The notes below the pieces were generated by a model. That model saw nothing but the letters and a program-made list of their open reading frames with translations, ran no database searches and was not told the origin of the DNA. The position numbers were made by a program, and so were the translations under genes. DNA of 37,708 bases from a virus. This document shows positions 5,072-34,980 of the stretch, in pieces (position 1 is the stretch's first letter; each line of letters begins with the position of its first letter). Location of the stretch: IMG/VR virus record IMGVR_UViG_3300026255_000014, positions 1 through 37,708 of that record. The stretch is one strand, 5' to 3'.

Positions 5072-6375
5072 GTGCAAATCTGTATTTAGGTGACTGTCTG
5101 GAAGTCTTATCAACGCTTGAAGCGGATAGCATTGACACCTGCATCACTGACCCGCCTTACGAGTTAGGTTTCATGGGTAAGAAGTGGGATTCAAGCGGCA
5201 TTGCGTTCCAGCCTGAAACTTGGCAAGCCGTATTCAGGGTGCTGAAACCAGGTGCAATTCTGCTTGCCTTCGGCGGCACTCGCACCTATCACCGCATTGC
5301 TTGCGCTATTGAGGACGCTGGCTTTGAAATCCGTGACACTATCGCTTGGGTATACGGGAGCGGATTCCCTAAAAGTTACGACATAAGTAAGGGAATTGAC
5401 AAACAAGCTGGAGCTGAAAGGGAAATAGTAGGCTACAAGGAAACATCAACTTATCCAGATAGCGATGGTGTTGCTCATTACAAAAACAGGCAACAAAGCA
5501 ATGGTTCTCAAGTCAATACAGGAGGTATGCCAGAAATCACCGCGCCCTCCACCCCCGAAGCGCAACTCTGGGATGGCTGGGGCACGGCGTTGAAGCCTGC
5601 CTTTGAGCCGATAGTTGTTGCGATGAAGCCGATTGACGGCACGTTTGTCAACAACGCGCTCACTTGGGGCGTGGCTGGCTTGTGGATTGACGGGGGTAGG
5701 GTGGGGACGTCAAAAAACGTTCCTGCATCACCAAGCGATAAAGGCACTCTGCAATGTAAAGGTTTGGGCGGTGGATGGGATAGAAGCGGAATGAATCCGA
5801 ACATTGGTCGCTTCCCTGCCAACTTGATTCACGACGGCTCGGATGAGGTGGTGAGTGGGTTTCCGAATACTACGAGCGGCAAGGTTGCGGCTGGAACTAT
5901 GCGAGGCTTGAAAAGCAATCACAATGTGGCATACGCAGACATCGCCGCCGGAACTGAATTGACTGGCTACGGCGACTCTGGCTCAGCCGCGCGCTTTTTC
6001 TACTGTGCGAAAGCCAGCCGAAGCGAGCGCAACGCTGGGCTGGAGGGGATGGAAGAAAAGGTCGGCGGTGGAATGAAGGGCACGGAAGACCAAACGCTTT
6101 TGACTGGCTCTGGAAACATCCGCAACAATAAAATGCAAAACCACCATCCCACCGTCAAGCCAATCGAACTGATGCGCTACCTTGTTCGGCTTACCAAAAC
6201 GCCAACAGGCGGGGTGGTACTTGACCCGTTCATGGGGTCTGGCACGACTGGCATTGCTTGCGTGTTGGAAGGACGCGAGTTTATCGGAATTGAGCGGGAA
6301 GCGGAGTATGTCGAGATTGCAGAAAAGCGGATTGCGCATTACAGGTTGCCGATATTGGAAGAAGTGATCGAGTGA
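5068..6375 (+). CDS. DNA methyltransferase (N6-adenine/N4-cytosine, beta-class order)
   Basis: N-terminal DPPY (ITDPPYELGF) and C-terminal AdoMet motif LDPFMGSGTTGIA. Confidence 0.85.
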   Translation: MSANLYLGDCLEVLSTLEADSIDTCITDPPYELGFMGKKWDSSGIAFQPETWQAVFRVLKPGAILLAFGGTRTYHRIACAIEDAGFEIRDTIAWVYGSGFPKSYDISKGIDKQAGAEREIVGYKETSTYPDSDGVAHYKNRQQSNGSQVNTGGMPEITAPSTPEAQLWDGWGTALKPAFEPIVVAMKPIDGTFVNNALTWGVAGLWIDGGRVGTSKNVPASPSDKGTLQCKGLGGGWDRSGMNPNIGRFPANLIHDGSDEVVSGFPNTTSGKVAAGTMRGLKSNHNVAYADIAAGTELTGYGDSGSAARFFYCAKASRSERNAGLEGMEEKVGGGMKGTEDQTLLTGSGNIRNNKMQNHHPTVKPIELMRYLVRLTKTPTGGVVLDPFMGSGTTGIACVLEGREFIGIEREAEYVEIAEKRIAHYRLPILEEVIE

Positions 6376-16578: not shown

Positions 16579-17196
16579 TTGAAGAACTTTCTGATCGAGC
16601 AGTTTCCTGATGCAATCGAGATTGACGGTGAAGTATATGCCGTCAATACTGATTTTCGTGTCGGGTTACAGATTATGGCTGACTTTGAGAATCCTGAGTT
16701 TGACCAGGATGAGAAGGGCTATCTAATGCTCAATCGGCTTTATCGTGATTTGCCAGATGACAGGGACGGCGAGTTTTATCAGGAAGCGTTATCAAAGGCG
16801 ACTAAATTTCTGAACGCTGGCGATGAGGCAGGACAAGACGTTGACGGCAAACCACGGCTTTACTCGTTTGACAAAGACGCACGGTTGATCTATTCTGCTT
16901 TCTCACAGACTCACGGTGTAGACCTGCAAACAGCCGATATGCACTGGTGGAGGTTTATCGCTCTCTTCATGGATTTGGGGGCAGATACGGCTTTCAATTC
17001 TATGGTCAACCTACGGAAACGTTATCACGAAGGCAAGTTGACCGATGAAGAAAAGAAATTGGTAGCGCGGTTAGGCAATGATTTTCTACTTGAGCAGGAA
17101 GAAAGTTATGAGCCGCTTGACCCTGATGAAATTGCATTTATTGAACTTTTACCAGAAGAAGACCAAAAGAGGTTTTGGGAAAGCAGGAAACGCTAA
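16579..17196 (+). CDS. Tail assembly protein (Gp15-like, candidate)
   Basis: TTG start; N-terminal pattern recalled from the Gp15 family; stop overlaps the TMP start (TAATG). Confidence 0.4.
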   Translation: MKNFLIEQFPDAIEIDGEVYAVNTDFRVGLQIMADFENPEFDQDEKGYLMLNRLYRDLPDDRDGEFYQEALSKATKFLNAGDEAGQDVDGKPRLYSFDKDARLIYSAFSQTHGVDLQTADMHWWRFIALFMDLGADTAFNSMVNLRKRYHEGKLTDEEKKLVARLGNDFLLEQEESYEPLDPDEIAFIELLPEEDQKRFWESRKR

Positions 17197-19901
17197 TGGC
17201 GTATGATGGCAGTATACGGATTAATACAAAAATTGACGGCAAGGGCTTCAACACTGGCATAAAGAGAATGATGTCCAGCCTGGGAAGCCTGACCGCTGCG
17301 ATTGGTGTTGCTTTAAGCGTGGCGGGTCTGGTCAACTTTGGCAAGAAAAGCGTAGAAACTGCTATGCAAATGGAAGCAGGTTGGCAAGGCTTGAGTTATA
17401 TGGCAAGAGCCTACGGCAAAGACATCAACCAAATCTCAGAGTTTTTGCAGGACTACACAAAAGACGGTTTAGTGCCAATGATGAACGCACAGCAAGCCTA
17501 TAAGAACATGCTTGCCCGTGGGTACGACACAGAACAGCTTGAAAAGATGCTGCTGATTATGAAAGACAGCGCAGTTTATCTTCGCAAAGGGCAGTTGAGC
17601 ATCGGCGATGCAATCGAGAAAACCACAATGGGCTTGCGGACAGAGCGATCTATCCTGACCGACTCCTCTGGTATCGAAAAGAACATGTATAAAATGTGGC
17701 AAGCCTACGCAAAGGAAATGGGAACAACCATTTCGGCTTTGACGGAAGAGCAGAAACTTATCGCCGAGTTCCAGGGTTTCATGGAAGAGGGCGCGGTTTA
17801 TGCTGGGGCTGCCGCTGAGTACACCCAAACTTACGCTGGTCGAGTGGCGCAATTAACCGCAGCAATGGTCGGTTTGAAGGTGTCCGTGGGTAACATGCTC
17901 ATCCCATTGCTGAATGCGATGCTGCCGAAAATTATTGAGATAGTACATTGGTTTACCCGCCTTTTCAACATCGTTGGGCGCGTGTTGAACTTATTATTTG
18001 GCACAAACGTTGGGGCAATAGACGCTATAGCTGAAGGGACTGAAGATGCCGCAGATGCACAGGACGCGTTGGCTGATGCGACTGGCGAGGCGGGCAAGGC
18101 GGCTAAAGGTGCATTGGCTGCGTTTGACAAGTTGAATGTACTGGCACAACCAAAAGCAGCGAGCGGTGCTGGTGACACAGACTTAGGCTTGCCAGAAGAA
18201 GAGGAAGACGGTGGTGCGCTTGGCAAGATTGGGAAAGCACTTGATGAGTTAGAGATAAAGATTGCGGCTTTCAAACAGAACTTGCTTGCTTTCTTCGCAC
18301 CATTACAAGAGCCGTTTAATCGCTTGAAAGAGGCTTTTCTGACCTTAGGCGCGACCATCGGTACTGGCTTAGGCTGGGCGTGGGAAAACATCTTGCAGCC
18401 ATTTTTCACCTGGATAGTCCAAAGCGTTGCTCCCGTTGCTCTTGACATTATTTCTGGAGCACTTGGTGTCCTAAACGAGATTTTGATTGCAGTTTCTCCG
18501 TTGTTTGTCGCTCTGTGGGAGAACGTACTGAAGCCGTTAGGGGAGTGGGCTGGCGAGGCGTTTATCCAAGCCCTGACTTGGATTTCAGAAAAACTTACGG
18601 AGCTAAGCGATTGGATCAGCACTCACCAGGAGACAGTTCAGACAATTGCAACCATCTTAGGAAGTTTCGCCGCAGCATGGATTCTCGTGAACGGCGCGAT
18701 TGGTATTTGGAGTGGAATAGCTGCTATAGCCACGAGCGTAACAACTGCGTTTGCTGGTGCGGTTGCGTTTCTGACATCGCCAATAGGGTTGGTGGTTTTG
18801 GCAATTGGGGCGGTAATTGCAATTGGTGTGTTACTGATCCAGCATTGGGACGACGTAAAAGCCTGGGCGATTAGCACCTGGGAAAAGATCAAAGAAGTTT
18901 GGGGTGTAGTCGCAGGCTGGTTTAACGAGAAGGTAGTTGAGCCACTAAAGGCGTTCTTTGCTCCAATAGCTGAATGGTTTTCAACCAACGTTACTGATCC
19001 ACTGAAAGAGAAGTTTGCAAACCTTGTCGAGAAGTGGACTGAACTCAAAGACGTGATCAAAGAGAAGATCATTGACCCTGTAGTAAAATTCTTTGAGGAA
19101 ACCCTTAAGCCGCTGATTGCAGCCGTCCTGGACTTTCTGAAGGATTACTTTGCTGAAGTTTGGGAGGGCATAAAAGATGTCATATCTACAGTGATTGGTG
19201 CAATCGGTTTGATTTTCGAGACACAGCTTGAGTTTTGGAAAGGCATTTTTTCAGGTGTCTTCGAGGCTATCGGTGGAATTATCAAAGGTGCGTTGGAGGT
19301 TATTACTGCGGTAATAGGGACGATCATTGACGTAATCGCTGGGATTATCACCTTCCTGACTGGTGTGTTTACTGGCGATTGGGACAAAGCCTGGCAGGGT
19401 ATCAAAGACATCGTGATTGGCATTTGGGACGGGATTGTTGGTGTAATCAAGGGCGCAATCAATGGGATCATCGGGTTTATCAACGGGATGATCAATGGCA
19501 TTGTATCTGGAATCAACAACGTAATCGGCGTGCTCAATAATCTGAATATTGAAATCCCCGATTGGATTCCATTTTGGGGCGGAAAGACTTTTGGCTTCAA
19601 CCTACAAGCCCTTACTGCCCCGCAAATTCCTTTACTTGCCACTGGCGCAGTTATCCCCGCCAATGCGCCGTTCGCGGCAATCCTGGGCGACCAGAAGTCT
19701 GGTACGAATGTCGAAGCACCGCTGAAAACCATTGAGCAAGCTGTGGACAATGTGCTGGCACGGCGGGGGCTTAATACTGGTACAGACAATGGGTTGATCC
19801 ACAACGTTATCAAATTGGACGGGCAAGTCTTATATGATGCGTTTAAGAAAATTGACAAGCGCGTTGGCAGAAGCATGATTGCAGGGAGCGGTATACGATG
19901 A
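17196..19901 (+). CDS. Tail tape measure protein
   Basis: ~900 aa, alpha-helical N-terminal part, Gly/Ala/Ile-rich hydrophobic C-terminal region, position after chaperones. Confidence 0.85.
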   Translation: MAYDGSIRINTKIDGKGFNTGIKRMMSSLGSLTAAIGVALSVAGLVNFGKKSVETAMQMEAGWQGLSYMARAYGKDINQISEFLQDYTKDGLVPMMNAQQAYKNMLARGYDTEQLEKMLLIMKDSAVYLRKGQLSIGDAIEKTTMGLRTERSILTDSSGIEKNMYKMWQAYAKEMGTTISALTEEQKLIAEFQGFMEEGAVYAGAAAEYTQTYAGRVAQLTAAMVGLKVSVGNMLIPLLNAMLPKIIEIVHWFTRLFNIVGRVLNLLFGTNVGAIDAIAEGTEDAADAQDALADATGEAGKAAKGALAAFDKLNVLAQPKAASGAGDTDLGLPEEEEDGGALGKIGKALDELEIKIAAFKQNLLAFFAPLQEPFNRLKEAFLTLGATIGTGLGWAWENILQPFFTWIVQSVAPVALDIISGALGVLNEILIAVSPLFVALWENVLKPLGEWAGEAFIQALTWISEKLTELSDWISTHQETVQTIATILGSFAAAWILVNGAIGIWSGIAAIATSVTTAFAGAVAFLTSPIGLVVLAIGAVIAIGVLLIQHWDDVKAWAISTWEKIKEVWGVVAGWFNEKVVEPLKAFFAPIAEWFSTNVTDPLKEKFANLVEKWTELKDVIKEKIIDPVVKFFEETLKPLIAAVLDFLKDYFAEVWEGIKDVISTVIGAIGLIFETQLEFWKGIFSGVFEAIGGIIKGALEVITAVIGTIIDVIAGIITFLTGVFTGDWDKAWQGIKDIVIGIWDGIVGVIKGAINGIIGFINGMINGIVSGINNVIGVLNNLNIEIPDWIPFWGGKTFGFNLQALTAPQIPLLATGAVIPANAPFAAILGDQKSGTNVEAPLKTIEQAVDNVLARRGLNTGTDNGLIHNVIKLDGQVLYDAFKKIDKRVGRSMIAGSGIR

Positions 19902-20266
19902 TAGTGATTGACGGCACTTCTTACGACATCCCAATCAAGTCCATTCAAGGTAAAGCGGATATGCTGGACAAATATGCCGAAAGAACTTTGGACGGCGTAC
20001 TCCATCGTGAGTTGATTGGTGTATACGACAACTATGAAATCGAGTTTGCGGCAACCTATCGGAATCCAACAGTTTATTCTGACCTTTGGTTTAAGTTGAC
20101 TGAGCCAGTGCCCTGGCACACCGTTACATTTCCTACTGTCTTTGGTGACCGTGCGATTGTTGGTTATTTTGCCAATACTTCACACGATATTTCAAAACAA
20201 AAAGATGGGACAACATACTGGAAAAATCTGACAACTTCTTTTGTTTCCCGTGAGAAGAGACCATAG
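19898..20266 (+). CDS. Hypothetical tail protein
   Basis: Position after the tape measure gene. Confidence 0.4.
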   Translation: MIVIDGTSYDIPIKSIQGKADMLDKYAERTLDGVLHRELIGVYDNYEIEFAATYRNPTVYSDLWFKLTEPVPWHTVTFPTVFGDRAIVGYFANTSHDISKQKDGTTYWKNLTTSFVSREKRP

Positions 20267-20268
20267 CA

Positions 20269-21849
20269 ATGTCTTATACCTACCCGATTGTCACTCTTAG
20301 CATTATGAATGATACCATCGTGTTTCAAGACACCGATGTAATTGAGGCAGAAGTCACGCAGGAAATCCATCCGATTGGGATTGAAGTTCCTGCTTCAAAA
20401 GCAACGATTAGAGTATGGCTTGATGATGAAATTGTGGATGAAGAGGGTAGAACGCTAAGGGATAAGTTTAGACCTTTTTCAGACGGGATTTATTACCAAT
20501 CCATGACCACAGGCTTGATAGTGGATGTCAGTGAGCGGATAGTCGATGAAGACAACTCAATTGACACAGAGCATTTTGTTGGTCGGTTTTATCTCGAAGG
20601 GTGGAATACCACAAAAGAAGGTGAACTCGAACTCGATTGCACTGATGCCGTTGGTCTTTTGGAAAACACAACTTATTTAGGGAATTTCTATGAGACACCG
20701 ACACGCGCTGACGTAATTCTTGCAGATATTTTTAATAATGTTGACTTGCTTTATTCTGTGGAAACAGGTATCGCACAAAAATATTTGAAAGGCTACATCC
20801 CTGGGGACATCACTTTACGTGAGGCTTTGCAGCAAGTGCTGTTTGCTTGTGGGGCTTTTGCTATAACAGAAAAGAACGAAATTGATATTGTATTTCTCAA
20901 TATCAAAAGTGGAAGACTGCCGATTGCCAATCCCGTTTACCCTGGCTACTACTATGAAGAAGAAGGCGAAACAGAGCCTGTTTCGACATATGATGGTGAT
21001 GCCTGGTATACCAATGTTCTTCTGGACACAATTGTCACAAATGAAGAAAAGACTGATTCGCAGGAGCTCAATATTTTGCAGTTAGTCACTGGTGTCGAAA
21101 TCACAAGTCACGACTATTCAAAAAGCGAAACACTTGAAGAGATATACAACGCTTATCTTGCCCCAGGCGAATATATGGTTGTTTACGATAAACCGTACTG
21201 GCATGTCGAAGCGTCTGGTGTTGGTGACAGAATTACTTATCTTGGCACAACAACACCAACAAATGATGACGGACAAGATGAAGTTCTTGTTTTCCCTTAT
21301 TCTGGCGCAACATATCCTGATGTGACGATTCTTACAACTTATGGCGAATTTGAGTTTGGCGTAAATTATGTCTATCTATATGTGCCAGAGCCAGGCGGAA
21401 CGGCAGTGGTTAGTGGCAAACCCTGGTTGGATGCAAAACAAAATTTCATCTGGGTGAATCCAGCTGGAATAACATCGTATGAAGAGGGTGCGGTTTATGA
21501 TGACCCACTTGCCTTATATAATGATGCGGTCTATTACCGTGACTGGAACACCTATGCCCCACCAAATGTTTGGAAAATTACCAATGCTACACTTGTGCCT
21601 TTTAATAAATCTGATGCTGAGGTGACTGTAGAAGAAGTCTTGGCGAGAGTCGCAGAATACGCAAGTTTGCGCTATCAGCAAAAGGCTAATTTGTTTCCAC
21701 GGACAGACCTTGAGTTAGGCGAGATTGACATTATCGAATCGCTTTATGGCAAAAGCGTGGTAGGCGTTGTGGAGCGTATAAATAGCGATTTAACTGGCGG
21801 CTACCTGATTGATGCTGAGTTTATTGGAGTCGAAAGGGTGACGGTATAG
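20269..21849 (+). CDS. Tail/baseplate protein (candidate)
   Basis: 526 aa, position in tail tip module. Confidence 0.45.
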   Translation: MSYTYPIVTLSIMNDTIVFQDTDVIEAEVTQEIHPIGIEVPASKATIRVWLDDEIVDEEGRTLRDKFRPFSDGIYYQSMTTGLIVDVSERIVDEDNSIDTEHFVGRFYLEGWNTTKEGELELDCTDAVGLLENTTYLGNFYETPTRADVILADIFNNVDLLYSVETGIAQKYLKGYIPGDITLREALQQVLFACGAFAITEKNEIDIVFLNIKSGRLPIANPVYPGYYYEEEGETEPVSTYDGDAWYTNVLLDTIVTNEEKTDSQELNILQLVTGVEITSHDYSKSETLEEIYNAYLAPGEYMVVYDKPYWHVEASGVGDRITYLGTTTPTNDDGQDEVLVFPYSGATYPDVTILTTYGEFEFGVNYVYLYVPEPGGTAVVSGKPWLDAKQNFIWVNPAGITSYEEGAVYDDPLALYNDAVYYRDWNTYAPPNVWKITNATLVPFNKSDAEVTVEEVLARVAEYASLRYQQKANLFPRTDLELGEIDIIESLYGKSVVGVVERINSDLTGGYLIDAEFIGVERVTV

Positions 21850-21864: not shown

Positions 21865-22920
21865 ATGGCTGAGCCTTTAACTAAGAAAATTAATGATTTA
21901 CCCGAAATGGGTGTCGTAGCAGCGTCTAACGACAAATTGCTGATGCTTGATGTGAGCGAGAGTGCTGTTAACATGACAAAGTTAGTGCCGATGAATTTGC
22001 TTTCAATTCACACGGCATCGCAACTTGCCGCAAATACGGTGGGCAGTTCTCAGATAAAAGCAGGCGCAGTAACAAACAGCAAACTTGGCGCAGACGCTGT
22101 TAATGGGGCTAAGATTGCAGATGACGCAATTGGCAATGAGCACATTAGAGACTCCGTAGCTTTGTCGGTTATCGGGCGTTCTTCCAGTACCAGCGGTAAC
22201 CCCGCTGACATCGTTGCAGGTACAAACGGTCACGTGCTCAGACGATCTGGTACAACACTTGGTTTCGGCCAAGTTGCCAATGCTGGAATTGCTAACGGTG
22301 CAGTAACAAACAGCAAACTTGGCGCAGACGCTGTTGATGGGGCTAAGATTGCAGATAACGCAATTGGCAATGAGCACATTAGAGACTCTGCTGCATTATC
22401 TGTAATTGGGCGTTCTGCGAATAGCAGCGGTAACCCCGCTGACATTGCAGCTACTACCGATGGTTATGTCCTGAGACGATCAGGAACAACTTTGGGATTT
22501 GGTCAGGTTGTTACTGCTGGAATTGCGAATAATGCTGTTACCGAAGAGAAGTTAGGCACGATTAAGCGCACCCTCTTTCTTCGGGTGACCGCGCCAGACG
22601 ACACATTAACAGTGGGAAGCACCACCAAATTCTTCCCGTTCCCGATTACCCTAAACAACTTTATCGTTGTCGACGCAAGAATCAATCTCATTACGGCATC
22701 GTCAAGTGGAACGGTCACAGTCGCTTTGTTAAATCAAGGCGGCACAATGACGACCTTATCACTTGCTGCTGGAGCAACGGGCATGAGCGCAAGCGGAACA
22801 ATCTCAACATCGTACCGCACTGCGATAACGAATAACTTTCTCGGTGTGAACGCAACCGCCGCTGGAACAGGGGCTAAAGGGCTTAGCATAACACTCGTTT
22901 TGCAAGGAGTGCCTGCATGA
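21865..22920 (+). CDS. Tail fiber protein with two tandem ~80-aa repeats
   Basis: Internal duplication AVTNSKLGADAV.GAKIAD.AIGNEHIRDS.ALSVIGRS...SGNPADI......G.VLRRSGTTLGFGQV, roughly nt 22060..22540. Confidence 0.6.
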   Translation: MAEPLTKKINDLPEMGVVAASNDKLLMLDVSESAVNMTKLVPMNLLSIHTASQLAANTVGSSQIKAGAVTNSKLGADAVNGAKIADDAIGNEHIRDSVALSVIGRSSSTSGNPADIVAGTNGHVLRRSGTTLGFGQVANAGIANGAVTNSKLGADAVDGAKIADNAIGNEHIRDSAALSVIGRSANSSGNPADIAATTDGYVLRRSGTTLGFGQVVTAGIANNAVTEEKLGTIKRTLFLRVTAPDDTLTVGSTTKFFPFPITLNNFIVVDARINLITASSSGTVTVALLNQGGTMTTLSLAAGATGMSASGTISTSYRTAITNNFLGVNATAAGTGAKGLSITLVLQGVPA

Positions 22921-24057: not shown

Positions 24058-25470
24058 ATGACTTATCCGTTCGGCATTGACATTTCGGCTTACCAATACT
24101 CACAAGACGGCTCACGAAAGCCCGACTTCGACCTAATCAACGAAAAGTGTGACTTCGTTGCCGTGCGTGCTGGCATCAGTTGGGGGTACACCGACAAGTG
24201 GTTTGAGTATTCGTGGTCACACGTTCTCAGACCGAGGCTGGGGTATCACGTGGTTTACCCTGGCGAGAGTGCGACTGCACAAATGAAACACTTTCTCAAC
24301 ATCGTGCATCCAACTCAGAATGACCGCCTTGTGCTTGATATGGAACTCGACCACGGCTATAGCAAGGCTCGAATCACAAAAACGCTTGTGGACTGTATGA
24401 ACATTATACAGACAGAGACGGGGCGTTATCCTGTGATTTACAGCAGGGCTTATTGGATTAACCAGTTTGTAGACGTGAACGCTTTGCCAGAAAAGACCGA
24501 CTGGTGGTTAGCAAACTACCTGCGTTCTAATCCCGACCCGTATTTCACGCCAGAGATGACACCGCCGCCTATGTTGCCAAACGGTGTGAAGAATTGGCTC
24601 ATCCATCAAACGTCAAAAGAACAGGACGGCAGTAAGGTGGGCGTGGTTAGTCACTATGTGGACACTAATCGTTGGAACGGTACACACGATGAGTTGCTGG
24701 CTTACTTCGGTTACGATGAGCAACCAGAGCCTGAACCTGAACCTGAACCGGAAGAGCCTTTGTTCCAAGCACGCGTTTACAGCTGGGCGACTCCCTACGT
24801 CAACGTGAGAGCCGAACCTTCATTAAGCGCAGGGAAAGTCGGCTTCAAATACCCGTTAGCGGTGACCGATGTTATGAGCACGATGCCTGACTGGTACGAA
24901 GTGCCCGAAGGCTGGATGATGTCTCGATTCTTAGAACGGCTTGACTATGACCCGCCCGCCACGATGCTTGCAATCAAGCCGCTCTCACAAAGAGACACGC
25001 GCTGGGCTTCTCACAAACTCGGTTATTCCTATTACACGATAGGCGGTTACGGATGCCTTATCACAGCTATCAGTATGATACTGAACTGGTACGGCAAGCA
25101 GACCGACCCGGCGCAACTCAATGACGCTTTGGTTAGGGTGGGCGGTTTCACGGGTGCAAACCTTTATTGGAACGCAATCGCGCAAGTTCAGCCTGACATT
25201 TACCTTGCAAAGGCTATCGACTGCTACTATATTCCAGCACCCTTGCACGAAATAGACGCTCTGCTTGCGGATGACGTTCCCGTCTTGGTGCACGTTGACT
25301 TCACGCCGGGTGGCGCGGTAGATCAGCATTGGGTGCTGATTGTCGGCAAGTCGGGCGATGATTACATCATCAATGACCCGTGGACTGGGGAGCAAGGTAG
25401 TTTCCGCACTCGTTATGGCGATCCTGCCCGCTGGATATTCCGCATCAGGGCGTATCGGAGGCAAGCATGA
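24058..25470 (+). CDS. Modular endolysin: GH25 muramidase, (EP)n linker, C-terminal C39-like cysteine peptidase
   Basis: N-terminal FGIDISAYQ typical of GH25; linker EPEPEPEPEPEEP; C-terminal GYGCLITAISM and DQHWVLIVG suggest a papain-like Cys/His pair. Confidence 0.8.
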   Translation: MTYPFGIDISAYQYSQDGSRKPDFDLINEKCDFVAVRAGISWGYTDKWFEYSWSHVLRPRLGYHVVYPGESATAQMKHFLNIVHPTQNDRLVLDMELDHGYSKARITKTLVDCMNIIQTETGRYPVIYSRAYWINQFVDVNALPEKTDWWLANYLRSNPDPYFTPEMTPPPMLPNGVKNWLIHQTSKEQDGSKVGVVSHYVDTNRWNGTHDELLAYFGYDEQPEPEPEPEPEEPLFQARVYSWATPYVNVRAEPSLSAGKVGFKYPLAVTDVMSTMPDWYEVPEGWMMSRFLERLDYDPPATMLAIKPLSQRDTRWASHKLGYSYYTIGGYGCLITAISMILNWYGKQTDPAQLNDALVRVGGFTGANLYWNAIAQVQPDIYLAKAIDCYYIPAPLHEIDALLADDVPVLVHVDFTPGGAVDQHWVLIVGKSGDDYIINDPWTGEQGSFRTRYGDPARWIFRIRAYRRQA

Positions 25471-26032: not shown

Positions 26033-28426
26033 ATGGCAAATTGGGCTAAGTTACAAGAGCAACTGACAGGACTGCCTGTTGTAAAGCGAGACAAGCACAG
26101 CATCCACTTTGCCAAAGGTGACGGGCAAATCGTTGCCAACTTCTCAGGCGCACCCTGTCACTATGAAGAGAACGGCATCTGGAAAGCACTCGACACCGCC
26201 ATCGTTGAACTGGAAGACGGCTCACTTGGCGCAAAGGGCGTACCAGTCCGCTTGAACCTGAACGGGCTTGTCAGGCTTATCAACGAAAACAACGAGGACT
26301 TATACAGTCAAGTCACGACACGGGTGGGCGTGTTCAATAGCACTACCCGCAACTTGGTAGATTACATCAACCTGCCAGTAGGACAAGTTCAAGACGACCT
26401 GCTGATAAAAGACACCGACCTCTATTCTCACAGTTTGCGCTTGACCGAAACAGGCTTGCGCGAAGAAATTGTCATCAAGTCAAAGCCAGCGTTTGTAACC
26501 GACAAGGCTAACTTATGGCTGGTACTTGACACGGTTGTGACGGGCGTAAGTTTCGAGGACGGCTGGCTGGATGCGTTTGAGATTGCGCAAATGCACTTCC
26601 CACCTCCAACCGCTACCGATGCGGAGGGGCGAGAGGGCACGGCGAAACGCTATGCCAAGAATATTGGTGGCGTTCAGCACATCTTTACTGGCTTGAAATT
26701 CAGTGAGTTGTATCGGGCGGCTTACCCTGTAACGGTTGACCCTGACTTTAGTGGTGGGTCTGGATATGTAATTACTAGTCAAAGTACTGATTATGCTACT
26801 GCAAGAACAACGAGTGTATCTTCAGCAGCTTGGTCGAATAGGTCTGACGTTGGGCAGGGACAGTGGTCTGTTTATCTAAGAACTTTACGCATCTTTACAA
26901 AGTTTGACACATCAAGTATAGGAGCAGGCTCAACAGTTACACAAGTTAACTTGGCTATGTGCCCTTATTATAACAATTCTGCTACAGATTTTGACATCCA
27001 GATATGTATGCAAGACTGGTCGGCTCAAGACCCCATAGCATCGGGAAATAGAGAAACAGCGTTTGACAACTGTCTCGCAGAAACAGATTACGATGTTTGG
27101 TTGAACAGTGCTGATTGTCCGAAAAGACAGAGATATACGGGTGGAAATATGACCACATCGTGGATTAACAAGACTGGCACAACATATTATAGTATTCGCT
27201 CAAGTAGGGACTACAACGGCGATGAGCGTGTAATTGATGGAAATACTGAAACTGTTAACTTGTGTGCGCCAGATAACGCCACCGAATCCTACCGCCCCGT
27301 TCTTACCGTCACCTATCTCATTCCCGACTACACCCTCACTTGCGCCGCCGGTTCATACTCGCTGACTGGCACGGATTGCACGCTTACGCACACTCCGGCA
27401 TCGCAAAACCTGACCCTCACCTGTTCCGCTGGCTCATATTCGCTAACAGGCACGAACGCCGACTTGACGGTCAAGCGGAATTATGTGCTGGCGTGTGGTG
27501 CTGGAAGTTATTCGCTCACCGGCTCGGATGTGGATTTTGTTCTGCAACGCAATTACTCGCTTGAATGCGGTGCTGGAAGTTACAGCCTGACTGGTACGGA
27601 CACGACATTCGAGGTCAAGCGAAATTACACGCTTGTCTGTGAAGCTGGAAGCTACAGTCTTACTGGTACTAACGCCGACTTGACGGTCACCCGACATTAC
27701 ACGCTAACCTGTGAGACTGGAAGTTATGCGCTTGCTGGCACTAACGCCGACCTTATTTTACAGCGCAACTATGTGTTAGCTTGCTCTGCTGGCAATTACT
27801 TAATCACAGGCACGGACGTAACACTCACTGTTCAACGCAATTACACCCTCACCTGCGCCGCCGGTTCATACTCGCTGACTGGCACTAACGTCACGCTCAC
27901 ATCAACCGTAAAGCAAAACTTGACGCTGGCTTGTTCTGCAGGCTCGTACTCGCTTACTGGCACTAACGCCGACTTGACGGTCACCCGACATTACACGCTA
28001 ACCTGTGAAGCTGGAGGTTATGCGCTTACTGGCTCAATCGTTGATCTGACAGTCCAGCGCAACTATGTGTTGGTGTGTGAAGCTGGTAGTTACGCGCTAA
28101 CCGGAACAAACGCAGGCTTGACTTCTGCTCGCACAATGGCACTCGAATCAGGTTCGTACGCCTTGACTGGCACGAATGCCGGTCTATACCGCGCGTTGGT
28201 TATGGCTTGTGAGGCTGGAACTTATGCGCTCACAGGCTCGGATGCTACGTTCAATGCCAATTACATATTTGCTCTCGGAATGGGGAGTTACGTTCTGGTT
28301 GGCACGAGCGTGGGATTGTTCGTTCTCTCGCCAACACCGGCTTGCAGAACCGCGACAATCGAATTTGAGAACAGAACATTTGCAATTCCGCATGAGAATA
28401 GAACATTAGAGGTCACATGTCACTAA
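26033..28426 (+). CDS. Large repeat protein: ~430-aa N-terminal domain plus ~16 tandem 22-23-aa Cys-containing repeats
   Basis: Repeats of consensus YTLTC.AGSYSLTGTNADLTV.RN span roughly nt 27320..28330. Confidence 0.6.
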   Translation: MANWAKLQEQLTGLPVVKRDKHSIHFAKGDGQIVANFSGAPCHYEENGIWKALDTAIVELEDGSLGAKGVPVRLNLNGLVRLINENNEDLYSQVTTRVGVFNSTTRNLVDYINLPVGQVQDDLLIKDTDLYSHSLRLTETGLREEIVIKSKPAFVTDKANLWLVLDTVVTGVSFEDGWLDAFEIAQMHFPPPTATDAEGREGTAKRYAKNIGGVQHIFTGLKFSELYRAAYPVTVDPDFSGGSGYVITSQSTDYATARTTSVSSAAWSNRSDVGQGQWSVYLRTLRIFTKFDTSSIGAGSTVTQVNLAMCPYYNNSATDFDIQICMQDWSAQDPIASGNRETAFDNCLAETDYDVWLNSADCPKRQRYTGGNMTTSWINKTGTTYYSIRSSRDYNGDERVIDGNTETVNLCAPDNATESYRPVLTVTYLIPDYTLTCAAGSYSLTGTDCTLTHTPASQNLTLTCSAGSYSLTGTNADLTVKRNYVLACGAGSYSLTGSDVDFVLQRNYSLECGAGSYSLTGTDTTFEVKRNYTLVCEAGSYSLTGTNADLTVTRHYTLTCETGSYALAGTNADLILQRNYVLACSAGNYLITGTDVTLTVQRNYTLTCAAGSYSLTGTNVTLTSTVKQNLTLACSAGSYSLTGTNADLTVTRHYTLTCEAGGYALTGSIVDLTVQRNYVLVCEAGSYALTGTNAGLTSARTMALESGSYALTGTNAGLYRALVMACEAGTYALTGSDATFNANYIFALGMGSYVLVGTSVGLFVLSPTPACRTATIEFENRTFAIPHENRTLEVTCH

Positions 28427-28698
28427 CATTACAAAATCCATTGAAAGACCCTTCCGCAGTGCTGGATTATGTGTTCGACTGGACGGAATGGCTGGCAACC
28501 GGCGAAACAATCACCGACCATACTATCACAGCCGACACGGGTATCACCGTTGACAGTTCGACTGAATCAGACGGCAAAGTTACCGTCTGGCTCTCAGGCG
28601 GTACGGCTGGTATCAATTACAAAGTGGCGTGCCTGATTACAACGTCCGCAGGGCGAACCGACGAGCGCACAATCTGGATCAAGGTGGTCGAAAGGTGA
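28417..28698 (+). CDS. Small conserved-looking phage protein (possible fiber-associated)
   Basis: Pattern DYVFDWTEWL...VTVWLSGGTAG.NYKV recalled as a recurrent phage family; function unknown. Confidence 0.35.
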   Translation: MSLTLQNPLKDPSAVLDYVFDWTEWLATGETITDHTITADTGITVDSSTESDGKVTVWLSGGTAGINYKVACLITTSAGRTDERTIWIKVVER

Positions 28699-30185
28699 GC
28701 AATTTGTTTCCAGACATAACGGGCGTGCTATATGAAGAAGAACAGTCAAAATTACATGAGATAGCCAAAACAACTACGCATCCAATTGTCAACATTGGCG
28801 TATATCAAGGATTGTCTACCGCACAACTTGCAAGTGGCACAAAGCAGAGCGTGTACGCCATTGACATTTGGGATGAGCGACCAGCAGGGTATGTCCCAAG
28901 TAAAAGGGACTTGATGAGGGGATACCACCTGAAGAAAACTCAGGACGTTTTCCTTGAAAACATGGAAAAGCACGGCTTGACAAACGTTATCCCGATAAAG
29001 GGTAACAGCAAGGTGGTTGGCAAAACCTGGGACACCCCGATAGGCGTGTTGTTTATCGACGGTGATCACCATTACAAATCCGCGCTTTCGGATTACAGCT
29101 TGTTTGCAAAACACATTGTAGTCGGCGGATGGTTAGCAATTCACGATTATCACATAAAAGACGTTAGAAGGGTGATAGACGAGATCATCATTCCTTCGGG
29201 ACTGTGGACGGACATTGAACTGACAGAGACCTTATGGGTTTGCAAGAGAAAGTCGTGCACGACAGCAGACGCAAAACCGCCTATGACATACTGGATACGC
29301 CATCATCAGCACAAAGGGAAGCCAATTGAAGACGCTTTAATTAGTCAAGGATGGCAGTGTAGTGACGCGCCAGATATTGCCTTGTTCGACACCGCGAGGA
29401 ACAAACCTATAGAACGCAGGTTTAGAAGAGGGGGCGCAACGCTTGTAGTCTATCCGCATACGGCAATTGCTGGCTGGTGGTACGACGGGATATTAGAACC
29501 GCCTAACGGCTTTAGTGCAATACTGGCTATCGGGGAAGGACAGAAGGAAGTCCAGAATATCATCACGCCGAACATCAGGGTTGAAACAATTGGTTGGAGT
29601 TATTGTCCAATCTTGCCATTTCAAAAGCCAAAGGCGATCAAGCAAATACTGTTTGCCCCCATCCATCCAAGCCTCAATGGCAAGTTGAGATCAGAGGCAA
29701 AAGACGTGAACGTCAGGGTGTATAAGCGTTTGCTGGAAATGAAAGGCGTGCAGATAAACCTTCGTGTTATTGGCGATCTTGAAAAGAATGGATTATGGCA
29801 CTCGCCAGATGTTACAACCACAGAAGCCCAACCAGACGGAAGTTATGCAGAAATTGATTCTGCAGATTTGGTGATAGGCGAGGGCATGTTTCTATCGCTT
29901 GCAGTAGCCAGAGGGAAGCCAGCTATCGGAATGAATCAGCGCGTAACACAGAAAGTAAACTGGAGTGGGCGCGTTCCAAAACGGTGGAACGAATATAACC
30001 ACTTACAAGCATATCCGATTGACTTTGATGACGCTGATCTGCCGGAGTTGATTGACAAGGCGGTAGACGAATCACAGGTAAGCAACTGGAAGAAACGCTT
30101 TATCGGTGAGCAGTTGCAACCTGAGCATTTATCAAACGTGCTAAAGGACATCAGGAATGAGCATGCCAAACAGAGAGAACAATAA
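28695..30185 (+). CDS. Fusion protein: class I SAM-dependent methyltransferase-like N-terminus, glycosyltransferase-like C-terminal domain
   Basis: NIGVYQGLST...FIDGDHHY...GGWLAIHDY resembles Methyltransf_24-type O-methyltransferases; C-terminal ADLVIGEGMFLSLAVARGKPAIG resembles GT-B C-terminal domains. GTG start overlaps upstream stop. Confidence 0.5.
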   Translation: MSNLFPDITGVLYEEEQSKLHEIAKTTTHPIVNIGVYQGLSTAQLASGTKQSVYAIDIWDERPAGYVPSKRDLMRGYHLKKTQDVFLENMEKHGLTNVIPIKGNSKVVGKTWDTPIGVLFIDGDHHYKSALSDYSLFAKHIVVGGWLAIHDYHIKDVRRVIDEIIIPSGLWTDIELTETLWVCKRKSCTTADAKPPMTYWIRHHQHKGKPIEDALISQGWQCSDAPDIALFDTARNKPIERRFRRGGATLVVYPHTAIAGWWYDGILEPPNGFSAILAIGEGQKEVQNIITPNIRVETIGWSYCPILPFQKPKAIKQILFAPIHPSLNGKLRSEAKDVNVRVYKRLLEMKGVQINLRVIGDLEKNGLWHSPDVTTTEAQPDGSYAEIDSADLVIGEGMFLSLAVARGKPAIGMNQRVTQKVNWSGRVPKRWNEYNHLQAYPIDFDDADLPELIDKAVDESQVSNWKKRFIGEQLQPEHLSNVLKDIRNEHAKQREQ

Positions 30186-31493: not shown

Positions 31494-31494
31494 T

Positions 31495-31713
31495 ATGCCC
31501 GTCTACGTTTACCATTGTGACAATTGCCTGAAGCAGACCGAGATATTTCAACACTTCACCGATGACCCGATAACCGTGTGCCCTGAGTGTAAACAGCCGA
31601 CTTTGCAGAAAGTGTATCAGGTTGCGAACGTGCATTACAAGGGCAATGGCTTCTATGTCACGGATAAACGAGGGGCTGAACAAGTGTCGGGGGAGTCTTC
31701 GGACAACTCATAA
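31495..31713 (+). CDS. FmdB-family-like zinc-ribbon protein
   Basis: MPVYVYHCDNC...CPEC...GNGFYVTD matches the FmdB-type zinc ribbon pattern. Confidence 0.65.
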   Translation: MPVYVYHCDNCLKQTEIFQHFTDDPITVCPECKQPTLQKVYQVANVHYKGNGFYVTDKRGAEQVSGESSDNS

Positions 31714-31742
31714 CGCGGGGGCAGTACCCGCCAGCTCCACTA

Positions 31743-31780
31743 AAAGAGCACCAGCTAAATTGTAGGTGCTCTTTCGTTTT
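31743..31780 (+). terminator. Rho-independent terminator closing the late operon
   Basis: AAAGAGCACC-loop-GGTGCTCTTT followed by CGTTTT. Confidence 0.7.
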
Positions 31781-31781
31781 A

Positions 31782-31855
31782 AGTATTGTATTCGAGTATT
31801 GTAATTAAGTATTGTAAGACGCATCCCATTTTAAGTATTGATTTCAGGTATTGTA
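31782..31855. repeat. Five direct copies of RGTATTGW (AGTATTGTA core), iteron-like
   Basis: Copies at about 31782, 31795, 31808, 31834, 31847. Confidence 0.7.
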
Positions 31856-32029
31856 ACGCCTTCTTCTGCCATTGCCTTATCAAGCAGGTTGCGTAGAGTA
31901 CGGCTGATCCCCTGTGGCTGTGACGTAAAAAAAGGGGGTAAAAACAGGGGTTATTATAATATCGCATAATTACACCTTATTATAATACAACGCTTATTTT
32001 AGGGGTATTTTATCGCTTGCAATGGCCAC

Positions 32030-32101
32030 GGGTTCAGGGTTCAGGGTTCAGGGGTTCACGATCTCAGGGTTCAGGGTTCAGCGTCCAGGGGTAGGGGGGG
32101 G
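32030..32101. repeat. Tandem GGGTTCA heptamer array ending in a G8 run
   Basis: GGGTTCA x3, GGGGTTC, gap, GGGTTCA x2, degenerate copies, then GGGGTAGGGGGGGG. Confidence 0.85.
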
Positions 32102-32214
32102 CGAAATCTCTACCGCGCAAGCCCCCCGAGCGCGCGCGTAATCTTAGGCACGCGAGGGCAAATATCCGACAGGGGGTTAATCTTACCAATTATTCAAGAA
32201 ATCCCGAAAAACAC

Positions 32215-32242
32215 TTGACTTTTGCTTTAATTTGTGTATAAT
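32215..32242 (+). promoter_or_regulatory. Sigma-70-type promoter, near consensus (probable early promoter)
   Basis: TTGACT (32215..32220), 16-nt spacer, TATAAT (32237..32242); RBS TAAGGAGC and ATG at 32284 downstream. Confidence 0.65.
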
Positions 32243-32283
32243 TCAGGTGTAGTAAAGTAATTCACACAAAGATAAGGAGCAAA

Positions 32284-32475
32284 ATGTTTGACACGCAAGA
32301 AATCTATTTATCCCGATTAGAACCACAAGAAGAAGAAATTGTCACTTGCCCACATTGCGAAAGTTATCTCGTTGAGCATCAGGACAATTTCACCTACGTC
32401 TGCCTGGATTGTCTGCAAGAGTTCAGCATCCACCCGATGGCAGATGACGACTCAATACCGTTTCGAAAGGAGTAA
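32284..32475 (+). CDS. Small zinc-ribbon protein (first early gene)
   Basis: CPHC...CLDC motifs; strong promoter and RBS upstream. Confidence 0.6.
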   Translation: MFDTQEIYLSRLEPQEEEIVTCPHCESYLVEHQDNFTYVCLDCLQEFSIHPMADDDSIPFRKE

Positions 32476-32477
32476 CG

Positions 32478-32594
32478 ATGTTAGACCAACTTTTTGATTT
32501 CATAGTAGGATTCGGAATTATCTGCATACCGATGATGATCGGCGCAGTTGTGGCCGGCATCATCGAGACAAGACGTGAGCGGAGGGGAAGATGA
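32478..32594 (+). CDS. Small hydrophobic peptide (38 aa)
   Basis: Hand-translated MLDQLFDFIVGFGIICIPMMIGAVVAGIIETRRERRGR; AAGGAG 7 nt upstream; below the ORF-track size cut-off. Confidence 0.4.
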   Translation: MLDQLFDFIVGFGIICIPMMIGAVVAGIIETRRERRGR

Positions 32595-32683
32595 CCGCAC
32601 TCGGAATTGACATGAGCAGCCGTGATGCAGGTGGGGGTACTCGCCAGCGCAATCTATGAGAAGTGGCAGGAAAGAAGGGCTAA

Positions 32684-34017: not shown

Positions 34018-34980
34018 ATGAATAATGAACTAATAACGCTTGATGAGAGAAGCCGTTTATACCAGCTTGAAGAAACTATCAGGCAAGGGCTGAATACCTT
34101 CGTGGATGTTGGGAACGCCCTGCTTGAGATACGGGACAAACGGCTTTACAGGCAAGAGCACAGCACGTTCGAAGAATACTGCAATAAGCAGTGGAACTTT
34201 ACAAAACAGCGTGTCTACCAACTTATGGATTCTGCCTCTGTAATCGACACTCTAAAAAAGTCAACCGTGGTTGACTTTTTACCAACCTCTGAACGCCAAG
34301 CCCGCCCGCTTGCGTCACTTGAGCCAGAAGAACAGGTTGAAGCATGGAAGCGCGTTATTACATCAACGCCGGAGGGCAATGTTACAGCCAAGATTGTTTT
34401 GAAGGCTGTAAAGGAAGTTGAGCGCGAGAAGCGCATTGAGCGAAGGCAAGAGCGCATAGAAAGTACTCCTGTAATTCCAAACGGGAAATACAACGTCATT
34501 TATGCTGACCCTCCCTGGCAATACGCATTTGGGTTTGATATTCATGGGGCAGCCGATAGACACTACTCCACTATGTCAATTGATGAACTTTGTGAATTGC
34601 CGATAAGAGACTTGACCGAAGACAACGCAGTCTTATTTATGTGGACGACATCACCAAAGTTATTTGATTCTTATGCTGTAATAAAGGCATGGGGATTTGA
34701 GTATAAAACTTCCTTCGTCTGGGACAAAGTGAAACATGTCATGGGGCACTATAACAGTGTCAGGCATGAGTTCCTTCTACTTTGCACAAAGGGAAGTTTT
34801 CCAAAACAGTCTAATACTTTACACGACAGCGTTATTGAAATCGAGCGATCGGACGAACACAGCGAAAAACCTGAATATTTTCGGCAACTAATTGAGACGA
34901 TGTATCCGCTATCGAAAAAAATAGAGTTATTCGCACGTAAAACTGTCGATGGCTGGGATGGCTGGGGGAATGAAATATGA
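34018..34980 (+). CDS. MT-A70-family N6-adenine DNA methyltransferase with N-terminal putative DNA-binding domain
   Basis: VIYADPPWQY, FMWTT, KAWGF, VWDK, EHSEKP, ELFARK...GWDGWGNE are MT-A70 signatures. Confidence 0.85.
   Translation: MNNELITLDERSRLYQLEETIRQGLNTFVDVGNALLEIRDKRLYRQEHSTFEEYCNKQWNFTKQRVYQLMDSASVIDTLKKSTVVDFLPTSERQARPLASLEPEEQVEAWKRVITSTPEGNVTAKIVLKAVKEVEREKRIERRQERIESTPVIPNGKYNVIYADPPWQYAFGFDIHGAADRHYSTMSIDELCELPIRDLTEDNAVLFMWTTSPKLFDSYAVIKAWGFEYKTSFVWDKVKHVMGHYNSVRHEFLLLCTKGSFPKQSNTLHDSVIEIERSDEHSEKPEYFRQLIETMYPLSKKIELFARKTVDGWDGWGNEI

What the first reader, a model, noticed from the sequence alone, without database searches (positions are those of the whole stretch)
22060..22540. 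Internal ~240-bp tandem duplication in the tail fiber gene
Two consecutive ~80-aa units with high DNA identity lie within 21865..22920. Repeat gain or loss would change fiber length and could affect host recognition.
Basis: seen in the sequence. Interest (0 to 1): 0.4.

Follow-up and report, generated by a model that had tools for sequence, protein, structure and literature searches.

The report
Variable-copy repeat module in phage tail fibre
A phage tail-fibre gene carries two in-frame copies of a 78-amino-acid building block, and close relatives carry none, one, two or at least three copies, so this is a real but ordinary example of a modular fibre whose length is changed by recombination.

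Summary
A 234-bp in-frame tandem repeat (2.0 copies, about 82% identical, no indels) lies at 22066..22533 in the 351-aa ORF 21865..22920. This ORF sits between the tail-tip genes and the lysis genes of a siphovirus-like phage. Each 78-aa unit is three decapeptides (AVTxxKLxxD type) plus a 48-aa small beta domain, a divergent member of the uncharacterised Pfam repeat DUF5907.

It is not a recent simple duplication. The first 89 nt of the two units differ at 2 sites (dS = 0). The remainder differs at 37 of 135 sites (dS about 1.6, dN/dS about 0.09).

Relatives whose flanking DNA is 94-100% identical carry 0, 1, 2 or at least 3 units. Some carry chimeric units, one lacks the beta domain, and three different C-terminal domains occur.

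That copy number changes fibre length or host recognition remains inferred.

Verdict: a new member of a known kind, of modest interest.

The parts
21865..22920 (+). 351-aa ORF, a candidate tail fibre or receptor-binding protein. It has an N-terminal anchor, two repeat units and a C-terminal jelly-roll domain.
   Evidence: ORF list. PHROG tail-fibre families phrog_892, 21412 and 28766. Synteny with the tape measure, tail-tip and lysis genes. The identical protein is on record on 14 contigs.
21865..22065 (+). N-terminal conserved region (aa 1-67), a probable attachment (anchor) domain. Relatives join it to different shafts and to three different C-terminal domains.
   Evidence: 93-100% nt identity to relatives over the first 170-189 nt. 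The same N-terminus is joined to the C1, C2 and C3 domains.
22066..22299 (+). Repeat unit 1 (aa 68-145): three decapeptides (AVTNSKLGAD AVNGAKIADD AIGNEHIRDS) plus a 48-aa beta domain.
   Evidence: TRF, codon-level comparison, unit HMM.
22300..22533 (+). Repeat unit 2 (aa 146-223), with the same architecture as unit 1.
   Evidence: TRF.
22066..22154 (+). Homogenised 5' segment of unit 1. Its partner in unit 2 is 22300..22388. 87/89 nt are identical, with exact runs of 36, 20 and 31 nt. This is the likely substrate for unequal recombination and gene conversion.
   Evidence: 2/87 differences over codons 5-33, dS = 0. Fisher p = 3e-7 against the 3' segment.
22156..22299 (+). 48-aa beta domain of unit 1, the DUF5907-like core. 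Its partner in unit 2 is 22390..22533. This is the part that has diverged between the units.
   Evidence: AF2 of the 54-aa core: pLDDT 86.5, four strands. In the overlapping 3' segment (nt 100-234 of the 22054 register, window 22153..22287), dS is 1.57 and dN is 0.135. The profile links the unit to PF19264.
22357..22357 (+). Polymorphic site in unit 2 (A here, G in L001 and L002; Asn/Asp). It is the only difference from L001 in 7056 bp, and the alternative base is the one unit 1 has at the matching position.
   Evidence: All four Asp/Asn combinations of the two units occur in relatives.
22534..22917 (+). C-terminal domain (aa 224-351), a confidently predicted beta-sandwich (jelly-roll). It is probably the receptor-binding tip.
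   Evidence: AF2 pLDDT about 95. BFVD matches to phage tail fibre, minor tail and collagen-repeat fibre proteins. Weak PDB jelly-roll matches. Relatives L008, L049 and L054 carry other domains in its place.
17175..19901 (+). Tape measure protein (context).
   Evidence: PHROG phrog_1535, E 5e-88.
19898..21849 (+). Two tail-tip genes (122 aa and 526 aa) directly upstream of the fibre gene (context).
   Evidence: ORFs. PHROG families of unknown function. The order is conserved in all relatives.
24058..25470 (+). Endolysin (GH25, SH3 and a C39-like peptidase). It marks the end of the tail module (context).
   Evidence: Pfam and PHROG.

Best explanation
The ORF 21865..22920 encodes a modular tail fibre or receptor-binding protein of an uncultivated siphovirus-like phage found in anaerobic-digester and bioreactor metagenomes. 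It has three parts: a conserved N-terminal anchor, a shaft built from interchangeable modules, and an exchangeable C-terminal jelly-roll tip. The shaft modules are 10-aa 'AVTxxKLxxD' repeats and a 48-aa DUF5907-type beta domain.

The 234-bp repeat is two copies of a composite shaft module, made of three decapeptides plus one beta domain. The two copies are old paralogues kept under purifying selection. Only their 5' 89 nt have been homogenised, by gene conversion.

Homologous (unequal) recombination between units, within and between co-circulating phages, adds, removes and shuffles units. This produces a natural series of fibres with 0, 1, 2 and at least 3 units.

Shown: the repeat, its reading frame, selection on it, copy-number variation, chimeric units, and swapping of the tip domain.

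Inferred: each unit lengthens the trimeric shaft by roughly 4-6.5 nm. That would set how far the tip domain reaches and so tune adsorption to hosts with different surface layers.
For: The repeat is real and in frame.

Tail context: tape measure, tail-tip genes, this gene, then the endolysin. PHROG tail-fibre hits. tblastn hits to annotated tail-fibre genes of Bradyrhizobium and cyanobacterial phages. The C-terminal domain has pLDDT about 95 and resembles annotated fibre and minor-tail proteins.

The unit profile finds 10,130 representative proteins with up to 15 tandem units each, and 9 of the 10 tested hit PF19264. Some relatives end in Peptidase_S74 or K1-lyase_C, which are typical of trimeric fibres and spikes.

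Copy number varies among relatives whose flanks are 94-100% identical:
- 0 units: L009, L010.
- 1 unit: L004-L007, L011/L046, L047.
- 2 units: the window, L001, L002, L008, L013-L015, L044, L045.
- At least 3 units: L003, where the two partial pieces around a 100-N gap add up to exactly 234 nt.

The 5' segment has 2/87 differences and dS = 0. The 3' segment has 37/135 differences, dS 1.57 and dN 0.135. The 5' segment groups by genome and the 3' segment groups by unit type. Relatives' units are block mosaics of unit-1-type and unit-2-type sites.

The only difference from L001 in 7 kb is a site in unit 2 that switches to the unit-1 state.

The position where the C-terminal domain starts varies among relatives, often in steps of about 10 aa, and by 78 aa between the one- and two-unit forms.

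A published rule of thumb gives 12-20 residues per nm for phage fibres (PMC3556154).
Against: No experiment or structure shows that the protein is in the virion, is trimeric, or binds a receptor.

The repeat region is poorly predicted as a monomer (pLDDT 44-63), so the length added per unit is only a rule-of-thumb estimate.

The window protein itself scores below the Pfam DUF5907 threshold (14.9 against 27 bits).

Copy numbers come from short-read metagenome assemblies, which can collapse repeats. L003 has an unresolved gap inside the array.

The one-unit forms need not descend from two-unit forms. They may be ancestral.

The single polymorphic site could be an ordinary point mutation rather than gene conversion.
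Confidence: 0.72

Rival explanations
1. Recent simple tandem duplication. On this view, a one-unit fibre gene was duplicated shortly before sampling by replication slippage or unequal crossover. The extra copy is a young and possibly transient length variant.
For: The two copies are exactly adjacent, in frame and without indels. The 5' 89 nt are 97.8% identical. One-unit relatives exist whose unit has the unit-1 junction followed by a unit-2-type 3' part (L011).
Against: Synonymous divergence over the 3' 135 nt is saturated (dS 1.57). Orthologous units in L008 are 94-95% identical to the window's, against about 80% between the two units within the window. The duplication therefore predates the split of these lineages. 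The two-unit form recurs unchanged in many samples.
Confidence: 0.08
2. The 48-aa beta domains are ligand-binding (for example glycan-binding) modules rather than inert shaft spacers. On this view, copy number tunes avidity or primary reversible binding to the host surface, and fibre length is secondary.
For: The core folds as a compact, independent small beta domain in AF2 (pLDDT 86.5). Most amino-acid differences between units fall in the predicted inter-strand loops, at unit residues 43-47 and 54-60. The domain occurs in up to 15 copies in very large proteins, as adhesin repeats do. Relative L050 lacks the domain but keeps the three decapeptides. That shows the domain can be lost without destroying the shaft repeat.
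Against: The motif (LSVIGRS..G.PADI...DG.VLRRSG..LGFG) is strongly conserved across more than 10,000 protein clusters from very different phages. That fits a structural or oligomerisation role better than specific ligand binding. dN/dS is about 0.09. There is no fold match to any known lectin or carbohydrate-binding module. A separate, exchangeable C-terminal tip domain exists that looks like the specificity determinant.
Confidence: 0.15
3. Assembly artefact or a diversity-generating retroelement pair. On this view, the two copies are either a mis-assembly of two strain variants, or the template and variable repeats of a diversity-generating retroelement (DGR).
For: Metagenome assemblies do struggle with this locus, as the 100-N gap in L003 shows. 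The two copies are similar but not identical, as DGR template and variable repeats are.
Against: The exact 351-aa protein is on record on 14 contigs from JGI and ENA. I read the two-unit gene in five fetched loci from different metagenome and IMG/VR records, and the one-residue variant P0001 in three more. The copies are in frame and adjacent. Mismatches are not adenine-specific: 13 of 47 have A in unit 1 and 12 of 47 have A in unit 2. None of the large ORFs tested hits a reverse transcriptase.
Confidence: 0.02

Closest known systems
Pfam PF19264 (DUF5907), a repeat of unknown function in phage, giant-virus and bacterial fibre-like proteins
   Same: The 48-58-aa core of the unit belongs to the same sequence family. 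A profile of the unit retrieves 10,130 protein clusters. Nine of the ten top hits tested match PF19264, seven of them above its threshold, and 11 of 40 aligned units match it individually. Like DUF5907, it occurs as tandem arrays in proteins annotated as tail fibres.
   Different: The window protein itself scores only 14.9 bits against the 27-bit cut-off. The period here is 78 aa, with three decapeptide spacers per domain, whereas the more distant relatives have a 58-aa period with one spacer. No function or structure is published for DUF5907.
Adenovirus fibre shaft pseudo-repeats (own knowledge, not tested here)
   Same: It is a trimeric viral attachment fibre whose shaft is a tandem array of a short structural repeat. 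Repeat number differs between related viruses, sets fibre length, and influences receptor engagement. The specificity lies in a C-terminal jelly-roll knob.
   Different: The repeat is unrelated: a 15-residue triple beta-spiral, against a 78-aa composite unit here. The virus is eukaryotic. The effect of length is experimentally established there and only inferred here.
Collagen-like repeats in the receptor-binding proteins of Streptococcus thermophilus and other dairy phages (own knowledge)
   Same: Repetitive shaft sequences in a siphovirus receptor-binding protein serve as recombination points. Through them, modules and host-range-determining regions are exchanged or deleted between related phages.
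   Different: Those repeats are Gly-X-Y collagen triplets. No Gly-X-Y repeat is present here (sequence). BFVD does show that the C-terminal domain here resembles tips of fibres with collagen-type shafts.
Variable-number stalk repeats of Gram-positive surface proteins, such as the Rib/alpha-C and SasG B repeats (own knowledge)
   Same: Tandem, nearly identical, domain-sized DNA repeats encode small beta domains. Their number changes by homologous recombination, which changes how far the distal binding domain projects.
   Different: Those are cellular, monomeric, cell-wall-anchored proteins. Their repeats are usually more than 95% identical along their whole length, whereas here only the 5' third is homogenised.

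Membership tests
Pfam DUF5907 (PF19264) repeat | The protein scores at or above the curated gathering threshold (27 bits) against the family HMM | tested here: not met
   14.9 bits, E 0.032, aa 83-131.
Pfam DUF5907 (PF19264) repeat | Homology to bona fide family members, shown by a profile search | tested here: met
   The unit profile (A2) finds 10,130 clusters at E<=1e-3. Nine of the ten top hits tested match PF19264, seven of them above threshold (25.6-135 bits). 11 of 40 aligned units hit PF19264 on their own. Many hits carry a precomputed PF19264 annotation.
Pfam DUF5907 (PF19264) repeat | Occurs as tandem copies of a roughly 60-80-aa unit | tested here: met
   Two 78-aa units here. Relatives have 3-15 tandem units with a period of about 58 aa.
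Phage tail fibre / receptor-binding protein of a siphovirus tail tip | The gene lies in the tail module, downstream of the tape measure and distal tail genes and upstream of the lysis genes | tested here: met
   Tape measure 17175..19901. Genes of 122 aa and 526 aa, then this ORF, then genes of 189 aa and 169 aa, then the endolysin at 24058..25470. The same order is seen in relatives.
Phage tail fibre / receptor-binding protein of a siphovirus tail tip | Sequence or fold similarity to proteins annotated as tail fibres | tested here: met
   PHROG phrog_892, E 3.6e-12, and two further tail-fibre families. tblastn to the Bradyrhizobium phage tail fibre gene and cyanophage tail-fibre-like genes. 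BFVD matches of the C-terminal domain to tail fibre and minor tail proteins. These annotations are themselves mostly unverified.
Phage tail fibre / receptor-binding protein of a siphovirus tail tip | Modular exchange of the distal (specificity) domain between close relatives | tested here: met
   The same N-terminus is joined to three unrelated C-terminal domains, C1, C2 and C3. L003's C-terminal domain is 79% identical at the nt level, against 94% or more for the flanks.
Phage tail fibre / receptor-binding protein of a siphovirus tail tip | Homotrimeric virion component that binds a host receptor | not testable with these tools
   Only monomer AF2 was available. There is no isolate, host or proteomics.
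Recent tandem duplication (young paralogues) | Low synonymous divergence along the whole unit | tested here: not met
   dS is 0 in codons 5-33 but 1.57 in codons 34-78. Units group by position across genomes.
Diversity-generating retroelement (template and variable repeat pair) | Adenine-specific mismatches between the repeats and a nearby reverse transcriptase | tested here: not met
   13 of 47 mismatches have A in unit 1 and 12 of 47 have A in unit 2. No reverse transcriptase domain was found in the large ORFs scanned. Small ORFs were not scanned.

The most novel reading that the evidence does not exclude
The DUF5907-type 48-aa domain is a structurally new 'bead' fold, with no detectable relative in the PDB. 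It acts as a host-surface (glycan) binding module. Its number is actively tuned in phage populations through a homogenised 5' 'recombination handle' that gene conversion keeps identical between otherwise diverged units. On this reading, the locus is a built-in copy-number switch for adsorption avidity and reach, not a passive shaft polymorphism.
Probability: 0.12. Interest if true: 0.55.

Novelty: new member of a known kind. Interest (0 to 1): 0.3.

Why it matters
Repeat-number variation in fibre shafts is a familiar route by which viruses adjust how far their receptor-binding tip reaches.

This locus gives a clean natural series. Phages that are otherwise 94-100% identical carry 0, 1, 2 or at least 3 units, a form lacking the beta domain, and three alternative tip domains.

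It also shows concerted evolution of only part of each repeat unit. And it attaches a context to DUF5907, an abundant repeat (more than 10,000 protein clusters) that has no known structure or function.

If a cultivable relative were found, the series would allow a direct test of how shaft length affects adsorption and host range. It could also guide the engineering of fibre length.

It does not open a new kind of biology.

Tried and rejected
- A megablast of 15 kb around the locus against 50,697 phage records found nothing. No cultured close relative or host could be named.
- PDB sequence searches found only chance-level hits, both with the whole protein and with a 40-sequence unit profile.
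- A Foldseek search of the unit model against the PDB gave no match better than E = 2, so the fold stays unassigned.
- A Foldseek search of the full model against the PDB gave only generic jelly-roll matches at TM 0.4-0.5. That is not enough to name a homologue.
- Literature searches for DUF5907 and PF19264 gave nothing usable. One paper was indexed for PF19264, but the term is not in its main text.
- A five-term search on repeat number in tail fibres found no paper.
- TRF on L003 found no array, because a 100-N gap interrupts it. The units were located by BLAST instead.
- The IMG/VR scan added only three near-identical two-unit contigs.
- I considered and rejected an assembly artefact, a DGR repeat pair, and a recent simple duplication (see the rival explanations).
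- The minus-strand ORFs across the repeat (22003..22377 and others) are by-products of the repeat. They have no support.

Full report
**Observation.**
Tandem Repeats Finder reports one long-period array in the window: 22066..22526, period 234, 2.0 copies, 82% matches, no indels, score 649. It lies inside the plus-strand ORF 21865..22920 (351 aa), and the period is a multiple of three.

In the register starting at 22054, the two units are 187/234 nt and 64/78 aa identical. Differences by codon position are 9, 9 and 29. In the register starting at Ala68 (22066), 191/234 nt are identical.

Across the whole window, adjacent 234-nt segments share 61.8 ± 11.3 identical positions. The maximum, 192, is this locus.

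**Anatomy of the unit.**
The natural register is 22066..22299 and 22300..22533. Each unit has two parts:
- Three decapeptides: AVTNSKLGAD, AV(N/D)GAKIAD(D/N) and AIGNEHIRDS.
- A 48-aa segment: (V/A)ALSVIGRS...GNPADI...G(H/Y)VLRRSGTTLGFGQV..AGIAN(G/N).

The C-terminal domain begins with a further AVT decapeptide (AVTEEKLGTIKRT) at 22534.

AlphaFold2 on the whole protein gives low confidence for the repeat region (pLDDT 44-63), as expected for a monomer model of a fibre shaft. It gives very high confidence (about 95) for a beta-sandwich from about residue 225 to the end.

AlphaFold2 on the 54-aa core, using a 40-sequence alignment of units, gives pLDDT 86.5 and four beta strands. No PDB chain matches this core by sequence profile or by fold (best E = 2).

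**What the gene is.**
The window is a phage genome or most of one. It encodes:
- a large terminase, portal and capsid;
- a tape measure at 17175..19901;
- two tail-tip genes (122 and 526 aa);
- this ORF;
- two small ORFs;
- a GH25/SH3/C39-like endolysin.

The ORF hits three PHROG tail-fibre families, best E 3.6e-12. It also hits annotated tail-fibre genes of a Bradyrhizobium phage and of T7-like cyanophages by tblastn.

The C-terminal model matches BFVD proteins annotated as tail fibre, minor tail or collagen-repeat fibre proteins (E down to 2.5e-9, target-normalised TM-score up to 0.68). In the PDB it matches only generic viral jelly-rolls.

I therefore accept 'tail fibre or receptor-binding protein' as very probable. 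No virion or binding data exist.

**Family of the repeat.**
Pfam gives only a sub-threshold hit to DUF5907 (PF19264): 14.9 bits against a cut-off of 27.

A profile of 40 units, searched against 1.84 billion representative proteins, finds 10,130 proteins at E<=1e-3. The 150 best-scoring proteins carry 3 to 15 matched stretches each. Nine of the ten top hits tested match PF19264, seven of them above its threshold. Eleven of the 40 aligned units match it on their own.

In these distant relatives the period is about 58 aa, one decapeptide plus the domain. Some end in Peptidase_S74 or K1-lyase_C domains, which are typical of trimeric fibres and spikes.

The unit is thus a divergent member of a known but uncharacterised repeat family. 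I found no usable literature on it.

**Copy number in relatives.**
The protein search returned close relatives whose lengths differ by exactly 78 aa: 351, 273 and 205 aa. I fetched their contigs. Where the flanking genes and the N-terminal part of the fibre gene are present, they are 93-100% identical at the DNA level to the window. The C-terminal part is at least 94% identical, except in L003 (79%) and in L008, which has a different domain.

| Units | Loci |
|---|---|
| 0 | L009, L010 |
| 1 | L004/L005, L006/L007, L011 (= L046), L047 |
| 2 | window, L001, L002, L008, L013-L015, L044, L045 |
| At least 3 | L003 |

- In L003, a 100-N scaffold gap sits inside the array. The two partial pieces on either side (163 + 71 nt) add up to exactly one unit.
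- Two 273-aa one-unit forms belong to the same 90%-identity cluster as the window protein.
- L050 has the three decapeptides but lacks the 48-aa domain.
- L049 has one full unit plus a second one without the domain.
- L008 and L049 carry a different C-terminal domain (...FWFVLIVG). L054 and L055 carry a third (...DFWFLVI).
- Among 63 complete proteins with the same C-terminal domain, the position where that domain starts varies widely, often in steps of about 10 aa. It differs by 78 aa between the one- and two-unit forms (145 against 223).
- Different variants occur in one metagenome: Ga0172381 holds L046, L049 and L053.

**Age and mode of evolution.**
Identity between the two units is very uneven.

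| Segment | Differences | dS | dN |
|---|---|---|---|
| Codons 5-33 | 2/87 nt | 0 | 0.03 |
| Codons 34-78 | 37/135 nt | 1.57 | 0.135 |

The difference between the segments is significant (Fisher p = 3e-7).

In the 5' segment, units group by genome or lineage:
- The four units of the window and L008 differ at 0-2 sites.
- The units of L003, L004 and L011 differ from each other at 1-7 sites.
- The two groups differ from each other at 10-15 sites.

In the 3' segment, units group by type. Window unit 1 against L008 unit 1 differs at 10/135 sites, and unit 2 against unit 2 at 12/135. Unit 1 against unit 2 differs at 32-40/135.

At the 47 sites where the window's units differ, relatives' units are block mosaics of the two types. 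For example, L004 reads 1-2-1-2, and L003's last unit reads 2-1-2. L011's unit has the unit-1 junction followed by a 3' part that is 156/156 identical to unit 2.

The window and L001 differ at a single position in 7056 bp. That position is 22357, in unit 2, and the alternative base is the one unit 1 carries at the matching site. All four Asp/Asn combinations of this site in the two units exist among relatives.

I read this as an old duplication, or a juxtaposition of two diverged units. Both copies are under purifying selection (dN/dS about 0.09). Gene conversion homogenises the 5' third, and recombination among units changes their number and composition.

The mismatch spectrum is not adenine-specific, and none of the scanned ORFs hits a reverse transcriptase. 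A diversity-generating retroelement is therefore excluded.

**Mechanism, and what is inferred.**
The following are shown: the repeat, its reading frame, selection on it, natural variation in copy number, chimeric units, and exchange of the tip domain.

The following is inferred. Each unit extends a trimeric shaft and moves the C-terminal tip further from the tail. That would alter adsorption to hosts with different envelope or capsule thickness.

A published survey estimates about 1 nm of fibre per 12-20 residues (PMC3556154). This would make one unit about 4-6.5 nm.

The main rival is that the small beta domains themselves bind the host surface, so that copy number tunes avidity. This cannot be excluded. 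The very strong conservation of the motif across thousands of unrelated phage proteins and the separate exchangeable tip argue for a structural role.

**Caveats.**
All relatives come from short-read metagenome assemblies, which can collapse repeats. The zero-unit and mosaic forms cannot arise by simple collapse, and several one-unit forms recur in independent samples. Even so, exact numbers, especially for L003, need long reads. The host is unknown. The endolysin architecture suggests a Gram-positive host, but that is only an inference.

**Verdict.**
This is a real feature. It sits in what is very probably a tail-fibre gene, although no virion or binding data confirm that. The suggestion of variable copy number is borne out in relatives.

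It is an ordinary phenomenon for phage fibres, and a new member of a known repeat family (DUF5907). Its interest lies in the unusually clean natural series and the concerted evolution of only part of each unit.

Noticed in passing
window 26033..28426 (+): A 797-aa ORF downstream of the lysis genes carries about 14 tandem copies of a roughly 24-aa repeat (RNYTLTCEAGSYSLTGTNADLTVx), from about aa 440 to 740. This array is far larger than the one in the finding. TRF detects only 27551..27751 (period 72). No Pfam or PHROG function was found. The related contig L003 has different genes at this position.
   Followed up: partly
window 6372..8966 (+): The large terminase is 864 aa and has a homing-endonuclease (PF05204 Hom_end) hit at aa 273-350, upstream of the ATPase and nuclease domain hits. 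This is a probable intein or homing-endonuclease insertion.
   Followed up: no
window 671..903, in ORF 122..1069 (+): A 12-nt (4-aa) periodic repeat (SVRD/SVWA/LVGA; TRF periods 24, 36 and 48; up to 9.7 copies) lies in a 315-aa ORF with no family hit.
   Followed up: no
window 31494..32683 (intergenic): The long non-coding gap holds several short direct repeats: 13 bp x2.8 at 31781..31817, 13 bp x2 at 31925..31950, and GGGTTCA x8.4 at 32030..32090. It is possibly a replication origin or regulatory region.
   Followed up: no
window 5068..6375, 28629..30185, 34018..34980 (+): Three separate DNA methyltransferase genes are present (N6_N4_Mtase, Methyltransf_24 and MT-A70). This suggests heavy anti-restriction investment.
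   Followed up: no
L008 999..2054; L049 331..1233; L054 1495..2073: The same N-terminal anchor of about 65 aa is fused to three unrelated C-terminal domains in close relatives (ending ...LVLQGVPA, ...FWFVLIVG and ...DFWFLVI). Where sequence is available (L008, L003), the downstream gene changes as well. This suggests a tip domain and partner gene that are exchanged together.
   Followed up: partly
L050 2..631: A relative keeps the three decapeptides of the unit but lacks exactly the 48-aa beta domain. The decapeptide spacer and the beta domain are therefore separable modules.
   Followed up: partly
L003 7351..9282 and L010 2075..3985, against window 20269..21849: The upstream tail-tip protein is 643 aa in L003 and 636 aa in L010, against 526 aa in the window. 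In L003 the extra residues are an insertion near the N-terminus. This is another length polymorphism in the adsorption apparatus.
   Followed up: no
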